Source: Phoronis australis
Lineage: Eukaryota > Animalia > Phoronida
Assembly: GCA_002633005.1 (NCBI GenBank)
Contig: NMRA01000361.1
Location: forward strand, 248,869-312,868
Length of the DNA stretch: 64,000 nucleotides
Direction: 5' to 3'
The notes under the pieces are model-generated. The model saw nothing but the letters and a program-made list of their open reading frames with translations. It had not been told where the DNA came from and searched no databases. The position numbers and the translations under genes were made by a program. Positions 1 through 16,100 of this stretch are shown piece by piece (position 1 is the first letter of the stretch; each line of letters starts with the position of its first letter).

Positions 1-798
1 GATCGTTATTTTTATGAACACGTTTTGACACCTCAAGAAATGGAAGAAGGAAGTACTCATCTTGTGACCAAAGTTTTTATGAATTGTTCTATCAGTGCAG
101 TACTTGGTTAAAGGATACATTCCTGTTTCGTCTAATGATAGAACTGCGTTTTTATGTACTGTAATTTTTGTACTAGACTTAGTTGAATTACACATGTAAA
201 TTTGTATCACTTGTCTTCTTTCCTAATGCATTATGAATATGCTGCAGTATTTGCATATACTGTACATGCATAAGTGGGTATTTTCGATTAAGTGTGACAA
301 AATTGTTGCAGTTCGGTTTTTCCAGTTTGCACTCTCAGCCCTTCAGATAAGTCCGGTTTCGCCTGACTTGGATGAAATCACTTGGTCTGGTTGGATCTGA
401 CTTGTACGAGTTTTAAGGTCATTGTAGTTAGTCTTCAAGTTCTTGAAAAGAAATGTTGTTCTTGCGATTTTTAAGTTCTACAAGTTATGTGTGGTTACTA
501 GAACAGCTGGTCTTGATTTAGCAACATGCAGCTCGCCCATGCAACTTCAGATTTTTGCAAGTTGAAACGAAATCAGTATGGTATTACTCCCAGGTTGCTA
601 TCAAGTTTGAAGAAGTCAAAGAATTCACCTGCAATTCACTTGTGATTTCAAGACTTCAGAATTAGCAGCACTTTTCCAAATACAGTACTTTTGGCAGGGC
701 TCTATGCTTAGCATATCAACTTGTTCAATGAACCTGTTGCTGAATGAGAAATGAGGTCACCAAAACGAGGTAACTCCTATGTGACAGTGTGATAGTTG

Positions 799-3199: not shown

Positions 3200-3671
3200 T
3201 TCTACTAACGTGCTAAAAAGTAAACCGTGCCTGAACGCGCGACGAGGAAGGCCCCCCGGCTGACATTCAGTTGAAACCGCTTGGAAGAGAAGTTACGTAA
3301 CAGGTCTCCAAATATTGGTCGCATCAGGAAAGCACCTTCCTCAAAGATACTATAAAATCTTTGCCTTCCTGGACGCATTCATGTCTTACCGTAATCACTC
3401 ATTGACGTTTCGGTGTCATGCGGCTCTTTACTCCGGACTCGTGTCTCAGTTTACGGGAAGCAGTTTGCCAATCACCCAGTCTACATGTACGTCATTTGTT
3501 GCTTCACACTACGTTGACGTTTTCCTGACCTATTTAAAAACAAATGTTTGATGACCGTAATCGCCCTATATAGCATTCCTAGTCGGGTTAATGTGTTGTG
3601 CTACAGTATAGTTGCCGTGGGTGTATTTTATCCGCGCTCTGATTGCTAGGGTCACTTACCATTTGGTTTCA
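3200..3671 (+). promoter_or_regulatory. Putative hcp promoter / 5' UTR
   Basis: CpG-richer stretch upstream of ATG 3672, with CCAATCA (~3468), TGACGT half-CRE motifs (~3403, ~3487, ~3515), a TTACGTAA palindrome (~3293), and TATA-like TATTTAAA (~3531) and TATATA (~3567). Confidence 0.35.
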
Positions 3672-6600
3672 ATGGCCTCTCGTGTGCTTTTGCGCTGGGG
3701 AGCGTCTGGATTTGTATCCACAAGCAAAATATGGCAGTCATCCAGGAGCGTGGTGGTTGGCTCTCTTATCCGGAGGCAGAATACAGACTACGCACCAGGT
3801 CTTGCGGCTTGTAATGTGGTTTTGAACCGAGGATATGCTGTTAAACCGAGACCTTCAAAGGAGTCCACACGCGAGGGTATGTGTATAAGGCTATGTAGGA
3901 CCTATCAACAAGCCTGGCTGTTTAGCAAAATATCTACAAATTATGGAATTCAAGTCAATAAAAGTACTTTTTGTGAAAGTAGAAAGCCTGTAGAATTGAT
4001 GTTTGGATTTTGATAGATCTTGGATGAATTGGCAGACTTGTTCATGTCCTTTAGTAAAATTTAAAAAAAAGGAAGGACCATCGACAGCAAAATCACGGTA
4101 TCAACAACATTGTTTTATATTGACTTGACTGAGATTAGACATGCTCTTAGTTAGAATGACTTAACGACTGGGCTGATGTGGTTATAGGCTATGTACTGTC
4201 TTATTCTGCTATATAGTACCTATCGGAAACCATGCTTTGTAAAAAGAAGGAGTAACTGAACGCCTTGTGCCTTGACACTCGCAGACTCCTATATAAACAT
4301 GCATTTCTTGACAAAGTGTTCAAAATGAAACCTCAAAAACTCTGTTACAATTTTCTAAATTACCTCTTCCATTTCGTTTATGCAACATCAGATTTTTTCA
4401 TGAAAATCGCAACAGTCTAAATTTTGATAGCCCTCACACAAAAGTGGAACATTTAAGAATAGGGTTTTGAAGAACATCGCATAATAAAGCAAAGTATCTG
4501 AGAAAGTTTCATATGAATCCGATCTCCCATCTCTGAGATATGATGGATGTTACTAATTTTGGTCAAAATTGAACTTTTTATGGGTCTGCATAGCCTTAAA
4601 CCAACTAACTGGACAATAGTACAATGTCATTATTTGTTAATTTGTATAATTTCAAACGTCAGTGGTAAATGCTATTGGTAGTCCAGTAATTGGAGTAGCA
4701 GTCCGTTTTATATCCCATAGCAACAATACAATAATTTCGTTAGAGCTCGTCAAAATCTTCATAACGCATACCAAAACTGTGTGGAGGAGGCAAGAAAAAA
4801 TTATGAAATTGAATTGTGACTTATTTCATTTTGAACACGAGCAAGTTCTTTGAACTATTTTGACGCTGGAGTGTTAACGTAGACAGGAGACTGGATAATG
4901 TCTAAATATTTCGTTCAGACCACAGTCTGCCAAATCACTATCTTGAGGTGACTGTTACGATAAAAATGTGCAATGTCATAAAGGATTACCTGGTGAAACT
5001 GATTAATGTGGTCGTTATCTTATGAATAATTTTGTGATTGTGACTTTAAAAGTCTTTCCCACGTTACGGATTTTTTCAACTTCTCCCCATCTTCAATGCA
5101 CATTGATTTTCTTCTGACACTCATGCCCTCCACTATATCTTCATGACCCTTCCGAAAAAGATCTGATCACTATTTACACACGCTATAGGGTAAAGCTATA
5201 GATTTGACACTGAGCTGTAGAATTTCAAAAAAGTTGGTCACTTTTTTGAAACTGAATGGTGTCCGCAGGAATGTAATGTATTCCTTAGCACTTGAATTTC
5301 GACTGGAACCCTATCTATGAAGTCTATCTGGCGAGGTACAGCATTTTTTTCTTTTTCATTTCGTTTTTTATTTCTTTATTTTACTTCACAAAACCTGAGT
5401 TTCTAACAGCGCAATTATTTAATCTCCAAAATCCCCCACCCACGTCAAATTTTGATGGTACGCGAATTGCCAAATTGTATACAGGAAAGATCGGTCCTAC
5501 ATGGGCGGCGCAGCACTGAAAAAGGTTGGGGGGGGGCTATAGCCCCCAGCCCCCCATGGTGCGCCGCCCATGTCCCATTGATATGCTGGGATGATTTTAG
5601 GACCGCGCCATTGTCGCGTAAAGATTTTCAGTCGTGACGCACTGTAGTTACTTAACTTGCCGGGCCAATGCACATATAAAAATTGGGTCGCAGTCACGCC
5701 TCATTTTATATCCATTGAATTCAGATAGTAACTCAAGGACAATGCAGAGCAGTCGATCAAAACTAACTTTGTCGATGACCAAAACGACAATGTTGGGGTG
5801 GTGGTAAAGCATTGTATGAAAATATACATATCTCAACTATGGATTTGTGTGTTTGGTTCCCAGGTAGCCGTTTAGACAAATCACTATTCGCCGTGCAACG
5901 TACTAAAGTAGCAGATGAAATCACACGTAAAAATGTACCCCCCCCCCCATGGGATCAAACAAGGACTGAAAATGCTAACGAGTGACATGTTACTAATTTG
6001 TCCATACGTTTGAGACCCTGTGAGTCAATTTTCGAAAAGGATCCCTGACTTAGACATGTTTCTCTTTCCTGATCTTAATATATTCAATTTCTTAGCTGGA
6101 CTAGAAGAAATGAATGGGCCTCGGGTTTTTCGTCAGGAATACTTCCAGTGTGCCGGCGGCAGAACATTTTAGGCGCCAAGCGGCAAGGCCTCAAGCTGTA
6201 ACGAACTGTCCGAGCTTCGCTTCTTATTTGAGTTAAGACCAAGTTGAGATCAGATTTGTAACGAGATGCTTGGTCTAAATTAAAAGTTTTTTTGTGACGA
6301 ACTTGCGTCCAAGTGCTCACGAAGACGAGCACTTGCCGATTTTTTTTTCTTCAGCCAATAAGGAGGTAAATTATCGATTGCTTGTGAAGTATAGAGATAT
6401 GCCAATGTACATCTTCAAATTGGAAAGTTTTATATCTTTGACTCTAGTGACGGGTAATCCACGTTGTCTTCCAGAGATGTTTTGTTTTCAATGTGAACAG
6501 ACAAAAAACCGACGAGGATGTGTCGAGATTGGTGTTTGTGGAAAGACACCAGACGTCGCTGCTCTGCAAGACCTCCTTGTGTTTGTTTTGAAAGGCATCT

Positions 6601-9600
6601 CTGTCTACGCCAATAGGCTTAGAAAGATGGGAGTTGGGATTCAACAGGAGATTGGAGAATTTACGTTTGGGGCTCTTTTCAGGTAGACCTATTCAAAATT
6701 AAGGATTATTACGCGATATTGTCTTAAAATACCCACGGGTAAATCAAATAGGAACTTACCAGCACCCACTTGCAAGGCCCAGAGGCGGATCTACAGGGGG
6801 GTTCAGGGGGTTCAAACACCCCTTTCGTGACAGGATCAAAAATAAAAACTCCAGAAAAAAGAAATCAGCAACTAAAAACCACAACAAATCTTACACGACC
6901 TTCCTTCCGCTCAGCGCTATGCGCCTCGGATTCGCTCGAATCCTAACACCTCCCCTCCATTACTGAAAACGTAGATCTGCCACTGCAAGCAATTGTTCGT
7001 TAATATGCATACTTGTCTCTATTGTCATTAAAACGCACTTCTTTGTTGTTTTGATTTTGTGTCAGTTTTACAGTCGATCTTTTAGTCCTGATTACAATTT
7101 CAGTTGATCCAAACAAATGTTATTTTGTGGAGGCTGTTAGGGCCGGTGTTTATTTTTTGTCTGAATATTCTTTCAGTACTCTCACGAATGTTAACTTCGA
7201 TCAAGATCGTTTTGTTGAATACATATCAGACGCAGTTAAATATCGAGATCAGCTCAAAGAATCATACATGCTGACATGTAGTGATGAGGGAATCCCACCG
7301 GACGTGTTCCTGCACGGACCTGCGCACTGGAAGCCTCCTGGCAATAAGTTTGACGTGCACAGCCTGGTAGAAGAAGGTATTTTTGCACGATTATGCATCA
7401 ACTTTTTTCGCTGTAACTGTAAGTGAACCTCTCGAAAACAAACTCGTGGTATAAACCTATTGAAAATAGATTTTCTAAACAGTTGTTTTAACGTAAACGT
7501 TGATCGTTCTCACAGTCCTTTCGAGTTTTAATGTCCAGACTTGAAATTAGAGTAATTCATTTACTTCAGAATTTTTTTTCTCGTAAGTATGATAGTGCAA
7601 CTCATTACAGGAAAGCAGGTGAATCTCCGTAACGAGGAACTCCAGTACGGCGAGGATGTTCACGGCGTTCGACAGATGATCATCTACGGCCTGAAAGGCA
7701 TGGCGGCTTATGGGCGCCATGCGCAACTGGTGGACGAATATGACGATTCGCTGTGTGGGTTTGTGTATGAAGTACGTTATTTCGAACACCATTCTATGGC
7801 CATTATTAGTCTTACAGGTTCATTTCCGATCGCTATATGTTTACTTAAGTTTTGGCCACAATTCTACTTCTGCATGAAGATATACCTTTCATTTTTATGC
7901 TACTAAATGTTTCACTGGATGGAAGCTCCCACCTCGTACAGAATATAAAGTCTCAATAATTGGTGCATAGCCCAGGCTGAAGAGGTCAACCTAGCACATA
8001 GTATCTGCCGAGTGAATTGGCTTTAGTTGTAGTTTGTCTATACCGCTAGTGGTGAATAAAAAAATCTTTTTGACTTGAGATCACTGCACCAGTTGAGTAC
8101 AATATTAGGCCATCACTACCACCTCCACTAATACTACTTCTGCTAAATCGTTCCAGGCACTTGACTGGCTAGCAACTGGCCCACCAAAAGAAACAAACGA
8201 TTTGGGAGCTAATCTTGCCATGGCTTTGAGGGTCGGCGAGGAAAACATTAAGGGGCTCCAGCTTCTGGACAAGGGTCACTGCACCTTATATGGAAACCCA
8301 TCACCAACTGAAGTCAACTTAACACCGGTACCTGGAAAGGTAAATGTTTTCGGTTCTACAAAAGACTTGTCAGTAGCCGATAAGCACACAGGTGCCAAGA
8401 TACTGTTTACTTCTAAAGCTGCTTTGTGAGAAATGATTAGGTTTCATAGTTTGAAGAACATTTAACAAATTTCGTTTCAGTGTTTATTGGTATCCGGACA
8501 CGACATTCATGACGTATATAACATCCTCAAGATGACAGAGGGAACTGGAATCAACGTCTACACTCACGGTGAATTGCTTCCGGTGCATGGCTATCCCAAA
8601 CTAAGAGAATTTAAGGTGAGGATAGAAGTGGCGGAGTAGAGAAGAATAGTCCCCACTCGTCTGGAACCTGGTTGCCAACCCTTTCTGTAAGAAGCTAGTC
8701 CTTTTTTCATCTGACGTGCTGTAGGCCCAGTTACGCCCTTTTAAGTTTTAAACAACTTGGTCTGACTATTGGTTCGAAATATTCAGTTCTGATGCTAACT
8801 AGGAATCATTTTTTTAGCACCTTGCAGGCCACTTCGGTGGGGCGTGGCAACTACAGCGGTTCGAGTTCCCTATGTTTCCGGGCCCTATTGTTATCACCAC
8901 CAACTGTTTAACAGAACCCATGAAGTCGTACAAGGACAGCATCTACACAGTCAATGAAACAGGTAGCCATTACACACGGTTGCTGCGTTACTTGGTGTTT
9001 ATCAGACATCGTGCCAAGTTAATGACTGTAGCCGTTATAGTTCTAGGCTTAACTATAGCGCTTGTGTTTAAATGAACACGCCATGAGCACCCCAACATTG
9101 AGAACAAGCTGGGAAGTGTGGTCATTTATTTTGTAACTAATTTAAGATGAAAATCCGAGTCGCTATGAATACTGAATATGACGACCATATTAACACTTTT
9201 CCTCAATGTCACTCTCACTCTCGTTTAATCCATCACGGCTTTGTTATTGACGTTTTTTCGCCAATTGTAGTTAACGTTCCGATCTTTTCTTTGCGGAGAT
9301 TCGATGATTTCCTGTTGGTATATTTATACGCTTAGTACTATAATTTATTTTAAGGCTGGCCTGGGGTGAAACATTTGCGTAACTTGGCAGAGGACTTTCC
9401 TCAAGTGATTGACCAGGCATTGTCAATGGAAGGGTTCACTAAGGCCCGTCAGTCTGAGCAACAAAAGACACTAACTGTGGGATTTGGTCATCATGCTATT
9501 GTCAGTAACGCCGACAAGGTAACTACTGTGTAGCTAATCTTTCCAATTTTTAAAACCATTGAAACCTTTTGTGTAAATGAGAGTAAAAAGTTCAAAGACA

Positions 9601-10207
9601 ACCCACCATCGAACTGTATATTATACTATATTATATTATATTAGTAAATACTTATCCAGTGTTGCTTTATTATCGCCTGGCGTTCTTTTCTTTATAGGTC
9701 ATAGGTGCAGTGCAATCCGGTGAACTTAGTCGCGTATTCCTCGTAGGCGGATGCGATGGTGCTGAGAACAAGCGCACATATTTCTCCAAACTCGTGGATG
9801 GGTTACCCGAGGACACTCTCATCCTCACACTAGGTTGCGCCAAGTACCGCTTCAACCGGCACGAGTTCGGGGAACTGGGGTCAACTGGACTCCCACGCCT
9901 TCTGGACGTCGGACAGTGCAACGATGCTTACGGCGCCGTTGTAGTCGCTACAGAACTTGCTAAAGCGTTCAATACTGACATCAACTCCTTACCCCTGTCG
10001 TTGAATATTTCATGGTTTGAACAAAAGGCCGTTGCAGTTTTACTGTCTTTGCTGCATTTGGGCGTCAAAAATATTCGCTTGGGTCCCGTCATGCCGGCTT
10101 TCCTCACCCCAACTGTTGTTAACATTCTACAAGACAAGTTCAATATTATGCCAACTCAAGTGAGAAACCCGAATGATGATCTGAAGGAAATGATGTCGGG
10201 AAATTAA
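3672..10207 (+). CDS. hcp: Hybrid cluster protein (prismane / hydroxylamine-NO reductase family), 9 exons, 645 aa, with predicted N-terminal mitochondrial presequence
   Basis: Exons 3672-3876, 6448-6682, 7177-7376, 7611-7771, 8157-8339, 8481-8615, 8818-8962, 9355-9518, 9698-10207. All introns GT-AG, phases consistent, 1938 nt total. Motifs: [23 protein letters not shown] (cubane Cys), [78 protein letters not shown] at ~10274 and ~10344. Exons 2-9 are near certain; linking exon 1 is inferred from phase. Confidence 0.95.
3889..4595. mobile_element. Non-autonomous TIR element (Kolobok-like, TTAA-type flanks) at the start of hcp intron 1
   Basis: ataa|ggctatgtaggacc ... ggtctgcatagcc|ttaa inverted termini. 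Confidence 0.45.
5500..5572 (+). mobile_element. Tiny 73-bp MITE family B in hcp intron 1
   Basis: TIR catgggcggcgca / tgcgccgcccatg; flanks tccta / tccca. Confidence 0.75.
6780..6985. mobile_element. MITE with TIR CAGWGGCRGATCTAC in hcp intron 2
   Basis: cagaggcggatctac ... gtagatctgccactg inverted termini. Confidence 0.6.
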
Positions 10208-10653
10208 AAGTAAGAAGTGGTCAACTTCAAAGGAACTCAAGGTTTTTCGCTGAAGAGGAACTTAGAGTTGGGAAATAAAAATGCAGTTCATTTTATTCTG
10301 TTGAATGATTTAGCTTTATTTATGTCCATTTTCTTGAATTAAGAATAAAAACCCCAATTTGATGTTCGTTTTAGTCGGTAAAACTTGGCGAGACGCAGCT
10401 TCAACTAATGAAAAGGTTAGCGTTTTAAAGATCTGTAACCAAACCACAGTTCCGACTCCGTAAGACCAACACGGCGCCAATTCCAAGCGGGAAGTCGCGA
10501 TCTCTGTAAGGTCGTAACTTCTTTTTGTTCAAGTACAAACATGTTAATCTTAGTTTCTGGTAAATATAATGTGTCAGTGGTAAAATGTTGCATTAACTAT
10601 TTAGTAGCATTCTTGTCGCGCCGTGTTGAGTAATTGCAACAACAGCGTATTGA

Positions 10654-10729
10654 CATGGGCCGCGCAGCCATTAGTGGGGGGCTATTGCCCCCCCTCCCCC
10701 AGTCCCCTATCAGGGGCGTGCCTCCCATG
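10654..10729 (+). mobile_element. Tiny MITE family B diverged copy, 5-bp TSD ATTGA
   Basis: attga|catggg...cccatg|attga, with the same G-run/C-run interior. Confidence 0.65.
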
Positions 10730-11737
10730 ATTGAATCGACCGGTTGTTGCAGTTTTGTGGAAGAGGCTTTTCCATCATTGAATGCAAAGGTTATAATTGA
10801 GAATCTTCTCGTTTACGATGTAATTATTGTTAAGTTGTATCATTGTAAATTTGATCGTCATGTAAATAAAAAGCCTATACAAACCTTAGTGTTTTAAGTC
10901 AGTATCTCAATACATGCCTTTTTCAAAAACACATTTTGGAGTCTTTTTGCAAGCATTTTCCAGCACTTACCAGGCAACAATCTCTTCACCGCGTGGAAAA
11001 ATACTTGCTAACCACAGTCGACGACGTGAACAAAGTGTGACGTCACGACCGTGGTGTAACGCAATATGTACACATGATTTCGTTGAAATGGTGGTTTTCA
11101 ACCGAGCATATTACCGACCTAAAGAAGCCATGAAGTCTATGAGATGGGAATACATGTATCTTTCCCAATAGTTCTAGATCCATTGGCATTCGAAACTGAC
11201 GAGACATATAACTGCATGGGTAAGCAGGTACACGTAGTTGATAAAAAAGTTGTTTTAACGCGACGTGGTGACGCTTCTACACACTTTTCCGAAAATGTAT
11301 ATTTTAACCGGAAACTTTTCAAATGTGCCTCGTCGTCTTGTTGTAAGCCACGTCGTTTTTAGTAGCCACCCAAACTAGTATAAAAATGAACGACTGGAAG
11401 AGTTCCGTAGACCAGTACATTCGCCGCGCTAATACATGCATGCGTGAAAAATACAGGCAGTCCATATAATTTGTGAAGTCGTATGTGAACCTACTGTGAT
11501 CCCTCATAAATAATTGCTGTTATAGAAACAAATGCCTCATTTTTGTTCAGTCTTTCAAATGAGCCCATGATAACATATGTATAGGGGCTATTGTGAAAAA
11601 ATACACCTCCCTCCTTAACAACAACTCATTTGCTAAATTATAGTTTTCTTTGTGATTCAGAATCTGATTAGGTGACTGAAATATAAGCTTATCTTATTTT
11701 CAGAAAAAATCGTTAATTTTCACTTAAAATTCCTTCT

Positions 11738-13104
11738 ATGTGGCCAGGTAAACTTAGGACATCTCAGAAGAGCGCGGGTCACAGACGAAGACGACGTCAC
11801 AAACTGGAAAGGGTGACTGAAGAATTCTTCACGGGATTTATCGATGAACGTAAAGATATAGAGGAAAGCAAGAAAAAGTTCAGAGGCAAGTCCCGTCCTT
11901 AAATGTTTTACATCCTGAATATACACAAAGACAACCTCGAAATTACCTTCCAGAGGTGATTAATTATATGCCAAAGTCATTAATAAACTTGGAATGAAAT
12001 GAATCGTTGTATCAATCAAATTCTGTTTGATTTCAGAAATCGACATCTCGTCACTGCGGGAGAAATTTCCCAAGTTCTGCGAGGTGGAAATTCTTGTGTT
12101 TAGGTCGTTGTTTCAAACATTTGACGTAAACCAAGATTGTGTTATAGATTTCAATGAATTGTAAGTATCTCTATGCTAAACTGCAAACTCGACACCTGTT
12201 ACGGTGTGTGGCTCATTTATTACGAAAATTAAAAAATGTCAGCTTTGATGCGGTTAGATTAAAAGGCACGCTTTAGCGTGACATTTGAATTTCTTGCAAA
12301 AGTGAGTAATCGATAATGACTTTAAGCGACATCTGACTCTTTTAAGGTGTCGAGTATTAGATGATCTAGGGGACCGTTCAACCAGAGCGGCTCGAAGAAC
12401 TTACTTTGACTTAGCAGACGAGGACAAGTCAGGATCGATGGATTTCGAAGAATATTTGAAGGTAACTCATTACAAATAGGTGATTTCGAACGTGGTCGAC
12501 TGGCATAGTTTTGAACTTCGCCAACCACCGTGTTGTGCTTATCAAAACCCTGATTGTAATGTAAGGCAAGGAAATTGCAAACCCTTGTCCTTGCTTATAT
12601 GAACTGAGGAAAAACACCGAGTTAGAAAACATAAAAGTAAAAACGCGTCCTTTCCCATCATCAAGGTTTTTTAACTATGCTATTCTCACCCATCGTCTTG
12701 CCTTTTGCCTCTTGTTGGTATGCGTCTGGAGCACGCGGGTACTACTGGATTGGGAAACAAGGCAGTTTTGGTTCTCCTCATATTGTAATATGTACAGTGT
12801 ATGTTTGTAGTGTGAATGCACGAAAAAACCGTAACTTCCATTCTCCCACGAAACGGTACCTACTTTGAAATTCTTTTTTAGCTGCGAAAAGAGTGTTCAG
12901 CTTGATAACTCGGCAGTGATGCTTATGAGTTCGGCAATTTTCGTAATAACCCGTTTTGTTTTCTAGTTCCTCGATCTAATACTTCATCAGCACGAGAAGC
13001 AGTTCTCTGAGCTGAGGCTAGAGTTAACTAAACGCGGCTTGGAGAAGGCAGAGCGACTACGAATGCTCAGTGTCCCAGAACAAATGCGACATGGGTTGTT
13101 CTGA
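11738..13104 (+). CDS. Small two-EF-hand calcium-binding protein (~174 aa), 4 coding exons
   Basis: Exons 11738-11885 (GC donor, AGAG|gcaagt), 12037-12160, 12347-12461, 12967-13104; 525 nt in frame. EF loops DVNQDCVIDFNE and DEDKSGSMDFEE; basic N-terminus HRRRRRHK; ends QMRHGLF*. AATAAA at ~13587 and ~13598. The start codon is less certain. Confidence 0.8.
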
Positions 13105-16100
13105 CACTAACTTATTTTTATAATTAAAATGTTTTTATATAACTTATTTATTGTTATTTGTACGCACTGTTTTGATTTACCTAGCTATAGTAGATTACGT
13201 ACGTAGTACTTTCATAGAAGTTACACTTTACAGTTTTATTCACCCTGGCAGTTGTTTCTACATCACTGTGTGTGCGAATACGTATAAACATTACGTATTG
13301 CAATTAACGTGCGTTCTAAGAGCTGTTTTTTGAGTGCCTTAGTAGAAATTTATCATTAAGACTGCAGTATATTGGCACTATTTCAACTTGTGAAGAAGAT
13401 AAACTGATGTCGCAAGGACGTAAATAGTTGAACACAGCAGTGTTACTTGGATTACAAATAAATTTTCTTATCGGTGTAAATTCGTGGTCAATTTTGTTCA
13501 AACGTAGTAATTGTTATGGCAGTAATGTAATGTTACGTCACTGGACCTGCCAATTTACAACTGCAGACGGTCATTCAGTGTGTATAAATAAACATTAAAT
13601 AAAATTTTGTGACTCTGTTTTATCCATTAGCTTGACTGACTTCAGACTTCTCTCCTAACTTTAGCGTCATCGACTATTAACTGGCAAAGCGACAACACTT
13701 GCTTGAATTCATTTTTGTCATTGGACCAAGAATCCTTGATAGCTTGACGCCGATGTTCCTATAGTCGAGCAAATATCATTACTAATATCTCCCAAAACAG
13801 CGCCCATGCCTTTACAATTGTCTACTCGATTTCACTCGATCCTCTTTCTTCACAAACGAATCGTTATAACTTCCACATTTCCGTTAAATCTAGTATGAAG
13901 AAGAATTGATGTGAATTATTGCAAATGGCAAATGTCTGAAACAATTACTTTGCTGATTGTTGTTTTTTGTGAGCTATAACAAACCAAAGCCTCACTTGGC
14001 TGCAGAAGATAACACTAGACACGCAACGTGTCTGCAAACACTTATTTAGAGACTCGCCGGAACCAGTAAAAATTCGTGGAACATATTTCGACCTACTATG
14101 ATTTACAATTCAAAACTTTACCTTTGGTAGTTGCAATGCCTGATGAAGGAGACGGTAATACGAGAGCTTTCCGCCATAAAGTGGATCCGTGTGCGTGGTC
14201 CGTTCGGAATGGTTAGCGACATTTCTTTAACCACTGCTCATTCTTGTGAAATTACTTTATTTTTAAGATATGTGCCCACCGAAAGTTCCCTCAACATCTA
14301 CACATGTGACCTTTTACTTTGGTACCAGCCAAGTGTCTCTATTGACTGGTAATTGAATGGAAAATATTTTGTATACGACCTAGGGTCAAGAGGACGCACA
14401 CGGACATTTGAAAGAGGATTGCACATTGTGGATTGATGGGAACCGTTATTTTACTCCAGATTTCTACGATTTGGTACTACGAATATTTTTGAAGGCCACA
14501 TGAATAATGTTTCATAACAAGTGTGAAGGTAGCACATTTCAAATTTCTCTCAAAACGCTTTCTGGCACAAGAACAGCCATTGAATATGGGTACTGACGGT
14601 AACAGACTGGGAGAATATATTTTTGGTCTGTATAGAGTTCAATAGCCGTCTCGCAACGAGAAAAACTTAGCCAAAATCACACAGCTCTGATTGAAAATAC
14701 ACAGCAACATCTCGCGGAATATCTTTTCAAGCGTGGTGCTTACATTAATAAACTCCACCGTGACCCTGAAGTACCTGGATATGAAACCAGCACGTCAACA
14801 AGGTCAATGGCCTTCGTCCAGAGGTCACCATGGTGCAGCAGCGCAACTTGCGCTAGGAACAAGCTAATCGAGGGCAATCGATCACGAGGACAAAAACTAA
14901 GCGAGCCGAACTAGACACTGCTGAGCCAATTAACATCACTTTATCAGGTACAGGCAGTGCAATATGCATGTATTCAAGAGGCAAAAACTGCTTCACTAGA
15001 GCAGAGATGAATTGGACCTTTTGTTCTCAGACATCTCTTACATCCTACTATTGTGCTGGCTGTGCAGAGAACTAGCTGACTGGACGATGAAGATGTGATT
15101 TGTTATACCAGCCCAACACCCTGCATTTGATGACCCACATAAAACAAAGACAAATAAGGATAAAAACTCTATTAAAACAGTATCCAAAATACATGTGCAT
15201 AATATAAAAATATGGAGTAAAACATTCATAACAAATGTGTTTGTTAGACGCAGTAGGGTAAAAGTTATAACAATTAACAAACATTAAAAAGATACTAAAC
15301 CTAATTTTGGCCTATTAACAGATATTAACCATGACTTTTGGTCCAGCTCTCTAAAACAATTTAACACTTTGTAACCCTCGTCAAGACTAAAAAATAGGGG
15401 GCAAATTTTGAAACCTCCTTACTAAGTGTACTAAAGGGGCTAGGGTGACCTACGTTTTAGGGGAGTCATACAACTGTGGGGAAAGACCACCCAACAAGAA
15501 CCATGACATCCAGTGAGTATCTGTTTTCAGCTGAATCCTGCATTTATCATTGACGTCAGACGCCAACAGAGCATTAGTTAGCAGGGGAACGAACGAGAAT
15601 TGATTGATATCACCAAAACAGGGTTTAGTATCCTTTATAAGAATGGAGGGGTTTTCTAGAACAGTGAAGTTTCAGATACGTTTACAGGAAAACCTTTGAT
15701 AGAATTGATAAGTCACTTCAGGACAGTCGATTTCAGTGTAAACTTATTGTCATTTACGACTTCGTATTGACCTTGTGTTGACTAATTAGGTTCAAAAACA
15801 CATACCTATACTGCATAAAAGTCGTCATTGAGTTTCATTATTCTTAAGGTTGGTCCTTGGCTTGAAGTCAACAGCAAACAACCTTTTACAAAACTGGTAA
15901 CGGGGGTCTCCCTGGACAAAAAATTTAAAAATGTGCAAATTGCATGTCTTGTTCTCACGTACCAGTCTTTCTTTTTGTTAATTAATGAAAACAATTACAG
16001 TTGCACATTATTTTCACTTTTTGGCCAGGTCACCATCATTTTACTGTCAAATAATAAAAAATACACCACTGTGGAACACAACTGCAATCATTTGACTTAA

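What the first reader, a model, noticed from the sequence alone, without database searches (positions are those of the whole stretch)
3672..10207. Intron-rich, intact hybrid cluster protein (HCP) gene in an animal chromosome
Seen: a 9-exon gene with 8 canonical GT-AG introns, polyA signals and host MITEs in its introns, on the same contig as ZNHIT3, AKTIP and KATNB1. This argues against bacterial contamination. All cluster ligands are readable: four N-terminal Cys, H (SGHD), E (THGE), C (TNC), the persulfide Cys (GGCDG), C (GCAK), C (GQCND) and E (FEQK). Known: HCP is a [4Fe-4S] plus hybrid Fe-S-O cluster enzyme, mainly of anaerobic or facultative prokaryotes, also found in protists and algae such as Trichomonas and Chlamydomonas. 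Reported activities are NO reductase, hydroxylamine reductase, peroxidase and S-nitrosylase. It is absent from the standard animal models. Inference: a domesticated animal NO-detoxifying or hypoxia enzyme, either an old horizontal transfer or a retained ancestral gene. Similar gene models may exist in other invertebrate annotations, but I know of no functional characterisation.
Basis: partly seen in the sequence, partly recalled or inferred. Interest (0 to 1): 0.92.

Follow-up and report, generated by a model that had tools for sequence, protein, structure and literature searches.

The report
Animal hybrid cluster protein gene
An invertebrate animal's chromosome carries an intact, spliced and expressed gene for hybrid cluster protein, an iron-sulfur enzyme otherwise known from anaerobic microbes, which is predicted to enter mitochondria and likely removes nitric oxide there; related genes already sit, unstudied, in annotated worm, lamp-shell and bivalve genomes.

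Summary
Window 3672-10207 (+) is a nine-exon gene with eight GT-AG introns. Three raw RNA-seq runs of the same species and one transcriptome contig show all eight junctions at exactly my coordinates.

Exons 2-9 match the hydroxylamine reductase/HCP model end to end. All four cubane cysteines and all seven hybrid-cluster ligands align to solved Desulfovibrio HCP. Exon 1 adds a 69-residue basic leader that bacteria lack, so I predict mitochondrial import.

Of 19 listed coding differences between individuals, 18 are synonymous. Neighbouring genes are animal genes.

In trees the protein sits with 100/100 support in a clade of annotated annelid, brachiopod and bivalve proteins. It is therefore a new member of an animal HCP clade that already exists in databases, and I found no functional study of that clade.

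The origin stays open. AU tests reject neither shared descent with the HCPs of unicellular holozoans nor a separate link to bacteria.

NO or hydroxylamine reduction in hypoxic mitochondria is inferred, not shown.

The parts
3672..3876 (+). Exon 1. Start ATG plus a 69-residue basic N-terminal leader, the predicted mitochondrial presequence. It has no match to HCP profiles.
   Evidence: One search found no Pfam hit. One search counted 8 R + 3 K against 1 D + 3 E, with the first acidic residue at 39. One search shows an R53-G-Y-A motif. One search shows the 3876/6475 junction in 28, 12 and 52 reads.
6475..6682 (+). Exon 2. It holds the retained bacterial-type Met and the [4Fe-4S] cubane motif C-x2-C-x8-C-x5-C (class I spacing).
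   Evidence: One search aligns it without gaps to residues 1-53 of D. vulgaris HCP (1e1d). One search matches NF003658 positions 1-67. One search gives the cysteine spacing.
7177..7376 (+). Exon 3. N-terminal helical domain; only its first half matches the profile.
   Evidence: NF003658 positions 69-100, E 2.3e-5; junctions on both sides.
7611..7771 (+). Exon 4. N-terminal domain.
   Evidence: NF003658 positions 132-175; junctions.
8157..8339 (+). Exon 5.
   Evidence: NF003658 positions 184-231. Prismane 25.3 bits; junctions.
8481..8615 (+). Exon 6. Hybrid-cluster ligands His (SGHD) and Glu (THGE).
   Evidence: One search aligns it without gaps to D. vulgaris residues 239-281, which places them at H244 and E268.
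8818..8962 (+). Exon 7. Hybrid-cluster ligand Cys (TTNC).
   Evidence: One search aligns it to 1e2u residues 283-329 and 8cnr residues 282-326, the column of C312.
9355..9518 (+). Exon 8.
   Evidence: NF003658 positions 328-382; junctions.
9698..10207 (+). Exon 9. C-terminal domain with the persulfide Cys (GGCDG), Cys (GCAK), Cys (GQCND) and Glu (FEQK), then stop TAA at 10205-10207.
   Evidence: One search aligns it to 1e2u residues 388-552 at E 3.5e-53, which places them at C406, C434, C459 and E494. The same columns are persulphido-Cys402 and Glu490 of MtHCP (PMC10210160).
10208..10780 (+). 3' UTR. AATAAA at 10274 and 10344, with a further AATAAA at 10865. The exact poly(A) site was not determined.
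   Evidence: In one search the transcriptome contig runs to 10644. In one search X8 depth is 63 in bin 10006-10672 and 5.7 in the next bin. One search lists the signals.
5499..5573 (.). High-copy palindromic MITE-like host repeat inside intron 1.
   Evidence: 17-nt inverted ends, 94% complementary; 88% copy at 2216-2280; many reads and contigs run from it into unrelated sequence, and DNA depth is about 60 times single copy.
3390..10126 (-). Natural antisense transcript that covers the whole HCP gene. It is present in RNA runs X6 and X7 and absent in X8. Its minus-strand introns are 3528-3657 and 10127-10970, with a further exon ending at 441.
   Evidence: Searches show first-mate-on-+ reads over the HCP introns, a CT..AC joint at 3527/3658 (23 and 17 reads), and a loose end at 10127 (21 and 17 reads) that continues at 10971/10972. 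One search places the loose end at 3390 onto 412-441.

Best explanation
This is an intact nine-exon nuclear gene of an animal, transcribed and spliced exactly as modelled. It encodes a class-I-type hybrid cluster protein with all eleven cluster-binding residues, preceded by a 69-residue basic leader that is predicted to send it into mitochondria, where it likely reduces nitric oxide (to N2O) or hydroxylamine during hypoxia.

Shown: the gene structure, its expression, its strand, the family membership, conservation of the ligands, purifying selection, residence among animal genes, and membership of a well-supported clade of lophotrochozoan HCPs.

Inferred mechanism: the leader would be cleaved after import, perhaps at the R-G-Y/A site about 14 residues before the retained bacterial-type Met. 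The N-terminal [4Fe-4S] cluster would take electrons from a general low-potential donor such as a mitochondrial ferredoxin. The hybrid Fe-S-O cluster would then reduce NO or NH2OH, protecting respiratory and Fe-S enzymes in animals that regularly go anoxic.

My odds: HCP identity and animal residence 0.97, mitochondrial location 0.7, NO reduction as the main physiological activity 0.45.
For: Structure and expression. Searches give the model. One search shows all 8 junctions in 3 of 3 raw RNA runs, plus a 2334-nt transcriptome contig. In X8 almost all reads have the first mate on the - strand, as expected for + strand RNA in a stranded library.

Family. One search finds Prismane hits in exons 2, 5, 6, 7 and 9. 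In one search exons 2-9 match NF003658 collinearly over positions 1-545 of 546. The simple sum of bits is 588, against a cutoff of 367. Searches find all 11 ligand columns.

Selection. 18 of the 19 listed coding differences are synonymous, and the one replacement (Y40F) lies in the leader.

Host context. The UPF0598/DUF4505 neighbour has animal best hits: a nemertean, a brachiopod and gastropods at about 60% identity. ZNHIT3_C is present. CDS GC3 is 0.51, inside the neighbours' range of 0.40-0.54. A 6644-nt DNA contig joins exons 3-9 to the downstream gene.

Clade. Support is 100/100 with annelid, brachiopod and bivalve proteins.

Leader. 21 of the 27 animal-clade rows carry a basic extension of 55-72 residues. 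All 20 rows of the bacterial clade carry 0-2 residues. An Arg 2-3 residues before a small residue recurs near the end of the leader.

Precedent. Acanthamoeba HCP is mitochondrial by microscopy and is induced by anoxia, and bacterial HCPs are thought to reduce NO to N2O (PMC13632651, passages read).
Against: No targeting predictor and no localisation data were available. The leader argument rests on composition and a recalled cleavage motif.

No activity, cofactor or induction data exist for any animal HCP that I could find.

The electron donor of class I HCPs is unknown even in microbes (PMC10210160). No reductase gene was detected beside this gene: no such Pfam domain appeared in the 100 ORFs of 70 aa or more that I scanned, out of 139 found. 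That is a weak test for short exons.

Six of the 27 animal-clade rows have short or absent leaders. They are probably partial transcripts or truncated ORF calls, but I did not check this.

A long antisense RNA covers the gene in 2 of 3 RNA samples, and its effect on HCP output is unknown.
Confidence: 0.6

Rival explanations
1. Origin reading A. The gene descends vertically from a mitochondrial HCP of the unicellular ancestors of animals, perhaps as old as the first eukaryotes. It survives only in some hypoxia-tolerant lophotrochozoans after many losses elsewhere.
For: HCPs with basic N-terminal leaders occur in a choanoflagellate (Salpingoeca punica), a filasterean (Pigoraptor chileana) and an ichthyosporean (Amoebidium parasiticum). 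In the careful tree the 12 bacterial rows form one side (95/86) and all eukaryotes the other. An AU test does not reject Holozoa as one clade (delta lnL 8.76, p 0.139). PMC13632651 reports companion work suggesting that mitochondrial HCP may date back to LECA.
Against: The free tree does not recover Holozoa; backbone supports are 61/23 and 20/7. No gastropod, cephalopod, ecdysozoan, deuterostome or cnidarian HCP appeared among the best 120 of either search. Those groups are plentiful in the same database for the neighbouring gene. Vertical descent would therefore need many independent losses.
Confidence: 0.4
2. Origin reading B. A single ancient horizontal transfer, from a bacterium or another eukaryote, entered a stem lophotrochozoan. 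The gene then gained introns and picked up a targeting exon.
For: The ten named animal holders are all lophotrochozoans. The animal clade sits on a long stem, 0.30 changes per column. Intron 1 lies one codon before the retained bacterial-type Met, as expected if a leader exon was spliced onto a transferred ORF. The AU test does not reject animals plus bacteria as one side (delta lnL 8.95, p 0.105).
Against: No bacterial or algal sequence branches with or inside the animal clade in 115-, 79- or 38-row trees. The bacterial rows in these trees come from the best-120 listings. Leaders and the retained Met are shared with other eukaryotic HCPs. Composition is fully host-like, so any transfer would be old.
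Confidence: 0.45
3. The protein works mainly as something other than an NO reductase. Candidates are hydroxylamine reductase (detoxification or nitrogen salvage), peroxidase, or a protein S-nitrosylase used in signalling.
For: The physiological function of HCP was long unclear, and alternative functions may exist by organism or class (PMC10210160, passages). NCBIfam names the family hydroxylamine reductase. The peroxidase and S-nitrosylase activities are recalled from the literature and were not checked here.
Against: Recent bacterial work points to NO reduction (PMC10210160 abstract; PMC13632651). Nothing in the sequence separates these activities.
Confidence: 0.3
4. The gene does not belong to the animal. 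It would be bacterial contamination, a symbiont or food-alga contig, or a chimeric assembly join.
For: HCP is typical of microbes, and green-algal HCPs are the next-best named hits at 64-68% on exon 9. The DNA runs that hold the locus may be the assembly's own source, so they are not independent.
Against: Eight spliceosomal introns are removed in RNA. High-copy host repeats lie in the introns. A DNA contig bridges the gene to its downstream neighbour. A spliced minus-strand RNA links 412-441, 3390-3527, 3658-10126 and 10971 onward. Animal genes flank it. It sits at 100/100 inside the animal clade, apart from the algae.
Confidence: 0.02

Closest known systems
Class I hybrid cluster protein of Desulfovibrio vulgaris and D. 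desulfuricans (PDB 1e2u/1w9m, 1gn9) and of Methanothermococcus thermolithotrophicus (8cnr)
   Same: Full-length three-domain layout, identical cubane spacing C-x2-C-x8-C-x5-C, and all seven hybrid-cluster ligand columns.
   Different: The gene is nuclear with 8 introns. It has a 69-residue basic leader in front of the bacterial start Met. The second half of exon 3 does not match the profile. The host is an aerobic animal, not an anaerobic microbe.
Annotated lophotrochozoan proteins: 'hydroxylamine reductase-like' (Mytilus trossulus, Dreissena polymorpha, Mercenaria mercenaria), 'HCP-like protein' (Mya arenaria), and unnamed models of Owenia fusiformis, Lingula anatina, Helobdella robusta, Sinanodonta, Solemya and Mactra
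   Same: Same clade at 100/100, same length class of 595-642 aa, and the same kind of basic leader plus retained Met.
   Different: At most 59-60% identical over the full length, so this is a distant member from a lineage with no close relative in the database. None of them has a functional study that my searches could find.
Acanthamoeba castellanii mitochondrial HCP (PMC13632651)
   Same: A eukaryotic HCP with an N-terminal targeting sequence. It is the experimental precedent for a mitochondrial, anoxia-induced HCP.
   Different: It belongs to an amoebozoan protist. Its sequence was not in my trees, and its relationship to the animal clade is untested here.
Escherichia coli class II Hcp with its reductase Hcr (PDB 7de4)
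   Same: Same family. Exon 6 is most similar to this chain (E 4e-20).
   Different: [quoted passage not shown] This gene has neither.
Green-algal HCPs (Chlamydomonas and relatives)
   Same: Eukaryotic, about 640-650 aa with N-terminal extensions, and 64-68% identical on exon 9.
   Different: They form their own clade (100/98), separate from the animals.

Membership tests
Hybrid cluster protein / hydroxylamine reductase (Pfam PF03063 Prismane; NCBIfam NF003658, TIGR01703) | End-to-end match to the family profile | tested here: met
   In one search exons 2-9 hit NF003658 collinearly at positions 1-67, 69-100, 132-175, 184-231, 234-278, 279-324, 328-382 and 383-545 of 546. The simple sum of bits is 588 against a cutoff of 367. 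This is a rough sum, because the spliced protein could not be submitted whole. One search gives Prismane 201 bits for exon 9 alone.
Hybrid cluster protein | Four N-terminal cysteines for the [4Fe-4S] cubane | tested here: met
   One search aligns exon 2 without gaps to residues 1-53 of D. vulgaris HCP, covering C3, C6, C15 and C21. One search gives spacing 2, 8, 5.
Hybrid cluster protein | Seven hybrid-cluster ligands: His, Glu, Cys, persulfide Cys, Cys, Cys, Glu | tested here: met
   Searches find residues identical to the solved chains at the columns of H244, E268, C312, C406, C434, C459 and E494. The roles of the persulphido-Cys and the Glu are confirmed from PMC10210160. The roles of the other five are recalled.
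Hybrid cluster protein, class I (as against II or III) | [quoted passage not shown] | tested here: met
   Class definitions come from PMC10210160. The spacing equals that of D. vulgaris. Profile positions 1-231 are covered.
Hybrid cluster protein | Actually binds the Fe-S-O cluster and reduces NO or NH2OH | not testable with these tools
   This needs anaerobic expression, EPR and enzyme assays.
Ni,Fe carbon monoxide dehydrogenase (same Pfam family) | Match to the CODH catalytic-subunit model | tested here: not met
   In one search TIGR01702 scores 32 bits against a cutoff of 478 for exon 9. In one search the CODH chains match only at E about 2e-4.
Hcp-Hcr type two-gene system | Adjacent NAD(P)H:HCP oxidoreductase gene | tested here: not met
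   Searches found no flavin, NAD or 2Fe-2S domain in the 238 window ORFs I scanned. The test is weak, because short exons are missed.
Mitochondrial matrix proteins with a cleavable presequence | Basic, hydroxyl-rich N-terminal leader poor in acidic residues, with Arg at -2/-3 of a cleavage site | tested here: inconclusive
   Searches count 8 R + 3 K against 4 acidic residues and 13 S/T in 69 residues, and show R53-G-Y-A. The maximum helical moment is 0.46. No dedicated predictor and no localisation data were available, and the motif rule is recalled.
Animal (lophotrochozoan) HCP clade | Branches inside the clade of annotated annelid, brachiopod and bivalve HCPs | tested here: met
   SH-aLRT is 100 in the 115-row and 79-row trees. 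Support is 100/100 in the careful 38-row tree.

The most novel reading that the evidence does not exclude
Some animals (bivalves, annelids, brachiopods and this lineage) keep an ancestral anaerobic module in their mitochondria: a hybrid cluster protein inherited from pre-animal holozoans. It turns NO into N2O when the tissue goes anoxic. If so, part of the nitrous oxide released by benthic invertebrates would be made by the animals' own enzyme and not only by their gut and shell microbes.
Probability: 0.2. Interest if true: 0.8.

Novelty: new member of a known kind. Interest (0 to 1): 0.55.

Why it matters
[quoted passage not shown] Here it is a functional-looking animal gene that is expressed and under purifying selection, with a probable mitochondrial leader. 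It belongs to a clade spread over at least three lophotrochozoan phyla known for tolerating anoxia.

That gives a concrete and testable candidate for how such animals cope with NO and nitrite chemistry in anoxic mitochondria. It adds an animal data point to the current debate on whether anaerobic mitochondrial enzymes go back to early eukaryotes (PMC13632651). It also raises the checkable possibility of animal-encoded N2O production.

The value lies in the overlooked clade as a whole. This single locus is one more member of it.

Tried and rejected
1. Whole-genome search: no genome is held for this window.

2. The run index listed no RNA holder. I laid the raw RNA runs of the same species label instead, and they gave the junction evidence.

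3. Comparing intron positions with other animals: the metagenome scan with an alignment of 16 animal HCPs kept 80 loci. The table showed only long near-contiguous matches at 40-52% identity, the prokaryote type. I did not open any of them, and none looked like an animal genomic locus. The tool for fetching encoding contigs is closed.

4. Deciding the origin: AU tests rejected neither Holozoa monophyly (p 0.139) nor animals plus bacteria (p 0.105). An animals-plus-green-algae constraint was not run.

5. The careful search on the 79-row set did not finish in time, so the tree reported for it is the quick one.

6. Literature on animal HCP:
- 'hybrid cluster protein' + metazoa gave 9 papers, none on animal HCP by title.
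- The six-term search was too broad.
- 'hybrid cluster protein' + invertebrate gave 3 irrelevant papers.
- 'hydroxylamine reductase-like' gave 0.
- 'hydroxylamine reductase' + mollus gave 7, with one one-line mention in the Manila clam genome paper.
- 'hybrid cluster protein' + Cys406 gave 0.
- The FEBS J 2020 algal HCP paper, whose phylogeny may include animals, is not held.
- The MitoTOL companion paper was not found as a separate record.
- Supplements were not opened.

7. Earlier scan notes: none for this genome, and none by words on animal HCP.

8. Inverted repeats in 6700-7050 and 10600-10800: none found. Only the 5499-5573 element is shown to be MITE-like.

9. AKTIP: only a sub-threshold UQ_con hit.

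10. No structure prediction or complex prediction was run. The spliced protein cannot be submitted, and sequence identity to solved HCPs already settles the fold.
Full report
OBSERVATION

The sequence at 3672-10207 gives a nine-exon open reading frame on the + strand when spliced at canonical sites. The exons are 3672-3876, 6475-6682, 7177-7376, 7611-7771, 8157-8339, 8481-8615, 8818-8962, 9355-9518 and 9698-10207. All eight introns are GT..AG and are 141-2598 nt long. The CDS is 1911 nt, or 636 codons plus TAA.

I laid three raw RNA-seq runs carrying the same species label as the DNA holders, plus one assembled run, on the locus.
- Every one of the eight junctions is seen in every raw run, with 7 to 52 junction reads per intron per run. 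After the tool's stated shift, the coordinates equal my model.
- A 2334-nt contig of run X5 covers 3681-10644 with all introns removed.
- In run X8 nearly all reads have the first mate on the - strand, which in most stranded libraries means + strand RNA.

DNA contigs of run X1 may be the assembly's own source, so they are not independent. They cover the locus at the same depth of about 10 as its flanks. One 6644-nt contig joins exons 3-9 to the next gene without a single difference.

WHAT IT ENCODES

Pfam finds Prismane/CO dehydrogenase family hits in exons 2, 5, 6, 7 and 9. NCBIfam's equivalog model NF003658 (hydroxylamine reductase) is matched by exons 2 to 9 in order, over positions 1-545 of 546. 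Simply adding the scores gives 588 bits against a cutoff of 367. The CODH model scores only 32 bits against 478.

Exon-by-exon alignment to solved structures gives the following.
- The Met at the start of exon 2 aligns with residue 1 of Desulfovibrio vulgaris HCP.
- The four cubane cysteines fall at positions 3, 6, 15 and 21 with class I spacing.
- The columns of His244, Glu268, Cys312, Cys406, Cys434, Cys459 and Glu494 all hold the same residue.

The class definitions come from passages of PMC10210160, and the roles of the persulphido-cysteine and the glutamate come from further passages of the same paper. The roles of the other five ligands are recalled. The protein is therefore a class-I-type HCP by every sequence criterion I could test.

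THE LEADER

Exon 1 plus one codon is a 69-residue extension with no family match. It contains 8 Arg and 3 Lys against 4 acidic residues, and 13 Ser/Thr. Its first acidic residue is at position 39.

In my 79-row set, 21 of the 27 rows of the animal clade carry a comparable extension of 55-72 residues. The other six are shorter or lack it, probably because they are partial. All 20 rows of the bacterial clade have 0-2 residues before the Met.

The bacterial-type Met is kept as a fossil just after the leader in nearly all eukaryotic rows. An Arg two or three residues before a small residue recurs near the end of the leader (R-G-Y-A here). That pattern fits the processing-peptidase motif as I recall it.

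I infer import into mitochondria. No predictor or experiment was available to test this. The precedent is Acanthamoeba HCP, which is mitochondrial by microscopy and is among the proteins most induced by anoxia (PMC13632651, passages read).

IS IT THE ANIMAL'S OWN GENE, AND IS IT KEPT?

Spliceosomal introns removed in RNA exclude a bacterial origin for the DNA.

The window also holds a ZNHIT3 C-terminal domain exon, NUDIX, EF-hand, WD40 and DUF4505 exons. The DUF4505/UPF0598 exon finds animals as its best hits: the nemertean Tubulanus, the brachiopod Lingula and gastropods at about 60% identity, then arthropods, echinoderms, cnidarians and vertebrates. The organism is therefore an animal, most like spiralians, with no close relative in the database. 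I did not try to name it.

The base composition of the CDS (GC 0.49, GC3 0.51) lies within the range of the neighbouring exons (GC3 0.40-0.54). The introns, at 0.38, match the window average of 0.39.

Intron 1 holds a 75-bp element with 17-nt inverted ends. It has a second copy at 2216-2280 and very many copies in the DNA and RNA runs.

Of the 19 coding differences between the assembly and the RNA individuals that one search listed, 18 are synonymous. The one replacement is Y40F in the leader. One search did not show 108 further differences across exons and introns. This ratio is strong evidence of purifying selection.

RELATIVES

The two protein searches together returned 208 distinct HCPs (searches listed each).

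The best named hits are predicted proteins of the following animals.
- Annelids: Owenia fusiformis and Helobdella robusta.
- Brachiopod: Lingula anatina.
- Bivalves: Mytilus, Mya ('HCP-like protein'), Dreissena, Mercenaria, Mactra, Sinanodonta and Solemya.

After these come green algae and then bacteria. No gastropod, cephalopod, ecdysozoan, deuterostome or cnidarian HCP was listed, although these groups are abundant in the same database for the neighbouring gene. Only the 8000 candidates sharing the most words were scored, so this is suggestive and not proof of absence.

The second search also brought HCPs of unicellular relatives of animals: Salpingoeca punica, Pigoraptor chileana and Amoebidium parasiticum (names).

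TREES

Three trees were built.
- A quick tree of 115 rows, the window protein plus the 114 listed hits that are 500 aa or longer (six shorter ones dropped), puts the window protein in a 26-row clade with all named animals at SH-aLRT 100.
- A 79-row set, which I picked from the 208, gives the same clade of 27 rows at support 100 under the site-heterogeneous model. This is the quick tree, because the careful search did not finish.
- A careful 38-row tree (37 database rows that I chose plus the window protein) gives the animal clade 100/100, green algae 100/98 and the 12 bacterial rows one side at 95/86. The backbone among the eukaryotic lineages is unresolved, with supports of 61/23 and 20/7.

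The best full-length identity of the window protein to anything is 59-60%.

AU tests on the 38-row set do not reject Holozoa as one clade (delta lnL 8.76, p 0.139). They also do not reject animals plus bacteria as one side (delta lnL 8.95, p 0.105).

A bacterial transfer limited to this lineage is excluded. Beyond that, the choice between vertical descent with many losses and one old transfer into stem lophotrochozoans stays open. I put them at roughly 0.4 and 0.45.

HOW IT MOST LIKELY WORKS

This section is inference.

After import and cleavage, the N-terminal [4Fe-4S] cluster would receive electrons from a general low-potential donor. The donor of class I HCPs is unknown even in microbes (PMC10210160).

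The hybrid cluster would then reduce NO to N2O, or hydroxylamine to ammonia. The named holders are burrowing, intertidal or sediment animals, which from general knowledge are facultative anaerobes. That fits a role in protecting mitochondria from nitrite-derived NO during anoxia. Other activities (hydroxylamine reductase, peroxidase, S-nitrosylase) cannot be told apart from sequence.

WHAT IS KNOWN

HCP is a well-studied microbial enzyme, and its presence in protists and algae is established. [quoted passage not shown] Andersson et al. 2006 do not mention animals for this gene (PMC1484493, passages).

The only printed trace of an animal HCP that my searches found is one sentence in the Manila clam genome paper. 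[quoted passage not shown] Searches found no functional or evolutionary study of animal HCPs. The FEBS J 2020 paper on algal HCPs and the MitoTOL companion paper were not available and may bear on this claim.

VERDICT

The locus is a new and rather divergent member of an HCP clade that is already annotated in animals but essentially unstudied. I rate the interest as moderate. The surprise belongs to the clade more than to this locus, and the clade is already visible in public annotation.

IN PASSING

In two of the three RNA samples (X6 and X7) a spliced minus-strand RNA runs antisense across the entire HCP gene. It has minus-strand introns at 3528-3657 and 10127-10970, a single exon of about 6.5 kb between them, and a further exon ending at 441. 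A + strand gene at about 10.7-14 kb is active in the same two samples. Both are silent in X8. This suggests, but does not show, a bidirectional promoter near 11.0 kb.

Noticed in passing
window 412-441, 3390-3527, 3658-10126 and 10971 onward, minus strand: A spliced natural antisense RNA covers the whole HCP gene in RNA runs X6 and X7 but not X8. Its introns are 3528-3657 and 10127-10970 (GT..AG on the minus strand), and the exon between them is about 6.5 kb. In X8, where the antisense RNA is absent, sense depth over the last exon is about twice as high. Three samples are too few to call this regulation.
   Followed up: partly
window about 10700-14000, + strand: An unannotated + strand gene lies just downstream of HCP, with GT..AG introns at about 11219-11746, 12161-12346 and 12460-12964. 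It is expressed in X6 and X7 and is essentially silent in X8. None of its ORFs of 70 aa or more has a Pfam hit. It may share a bidirectional promoter near 11.0 kb with the antisense RNA.
   Followed up: partly
window 3750 and 10205: Most RNA reads lack 3 bases at 3750, an in-frame one-codon length polymorphism in the leader. Most reads also have one extra A after 10205, inside the A-run that follows the T of the stop codon, so the TAA stop is kept.
   Followed up: partly
window 5499-5573 and 2216-2280: A 75-bp palindromic MITE-like element with 17-nt inverted ends. Reads and contigs run from it into many unrelated sequences, so it is a very high-copy and transcribed host repeat.
   Followed up: partly
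window 6477-6479: The bacterial-type start Met is retained immediately after the leader, and intron 1 (phase 1) lies one codon upstream of it. The same fossil Met is present in nearly all eukaryotic HCP rows examined.
   Followed up: partly
No gene models were built for them.
   Followed up: no
proteins P0245, P0258, P0263 (database, not the window): Unicellular holozoans (Salpingoeca punica, Pigoraptor chileana, Amoebidium parasiticum) have HCPs. The Salpingoeca and Amoebidium sequences show Arg-rich N-terminal leaders of 37 and 52 residues. My motif search did not find the cubane motif in the Pigoraptor sequence, so its leader was not measured. These sequences are relevant to whether mitochondrial HCP predates animals.
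   Followed up: partly
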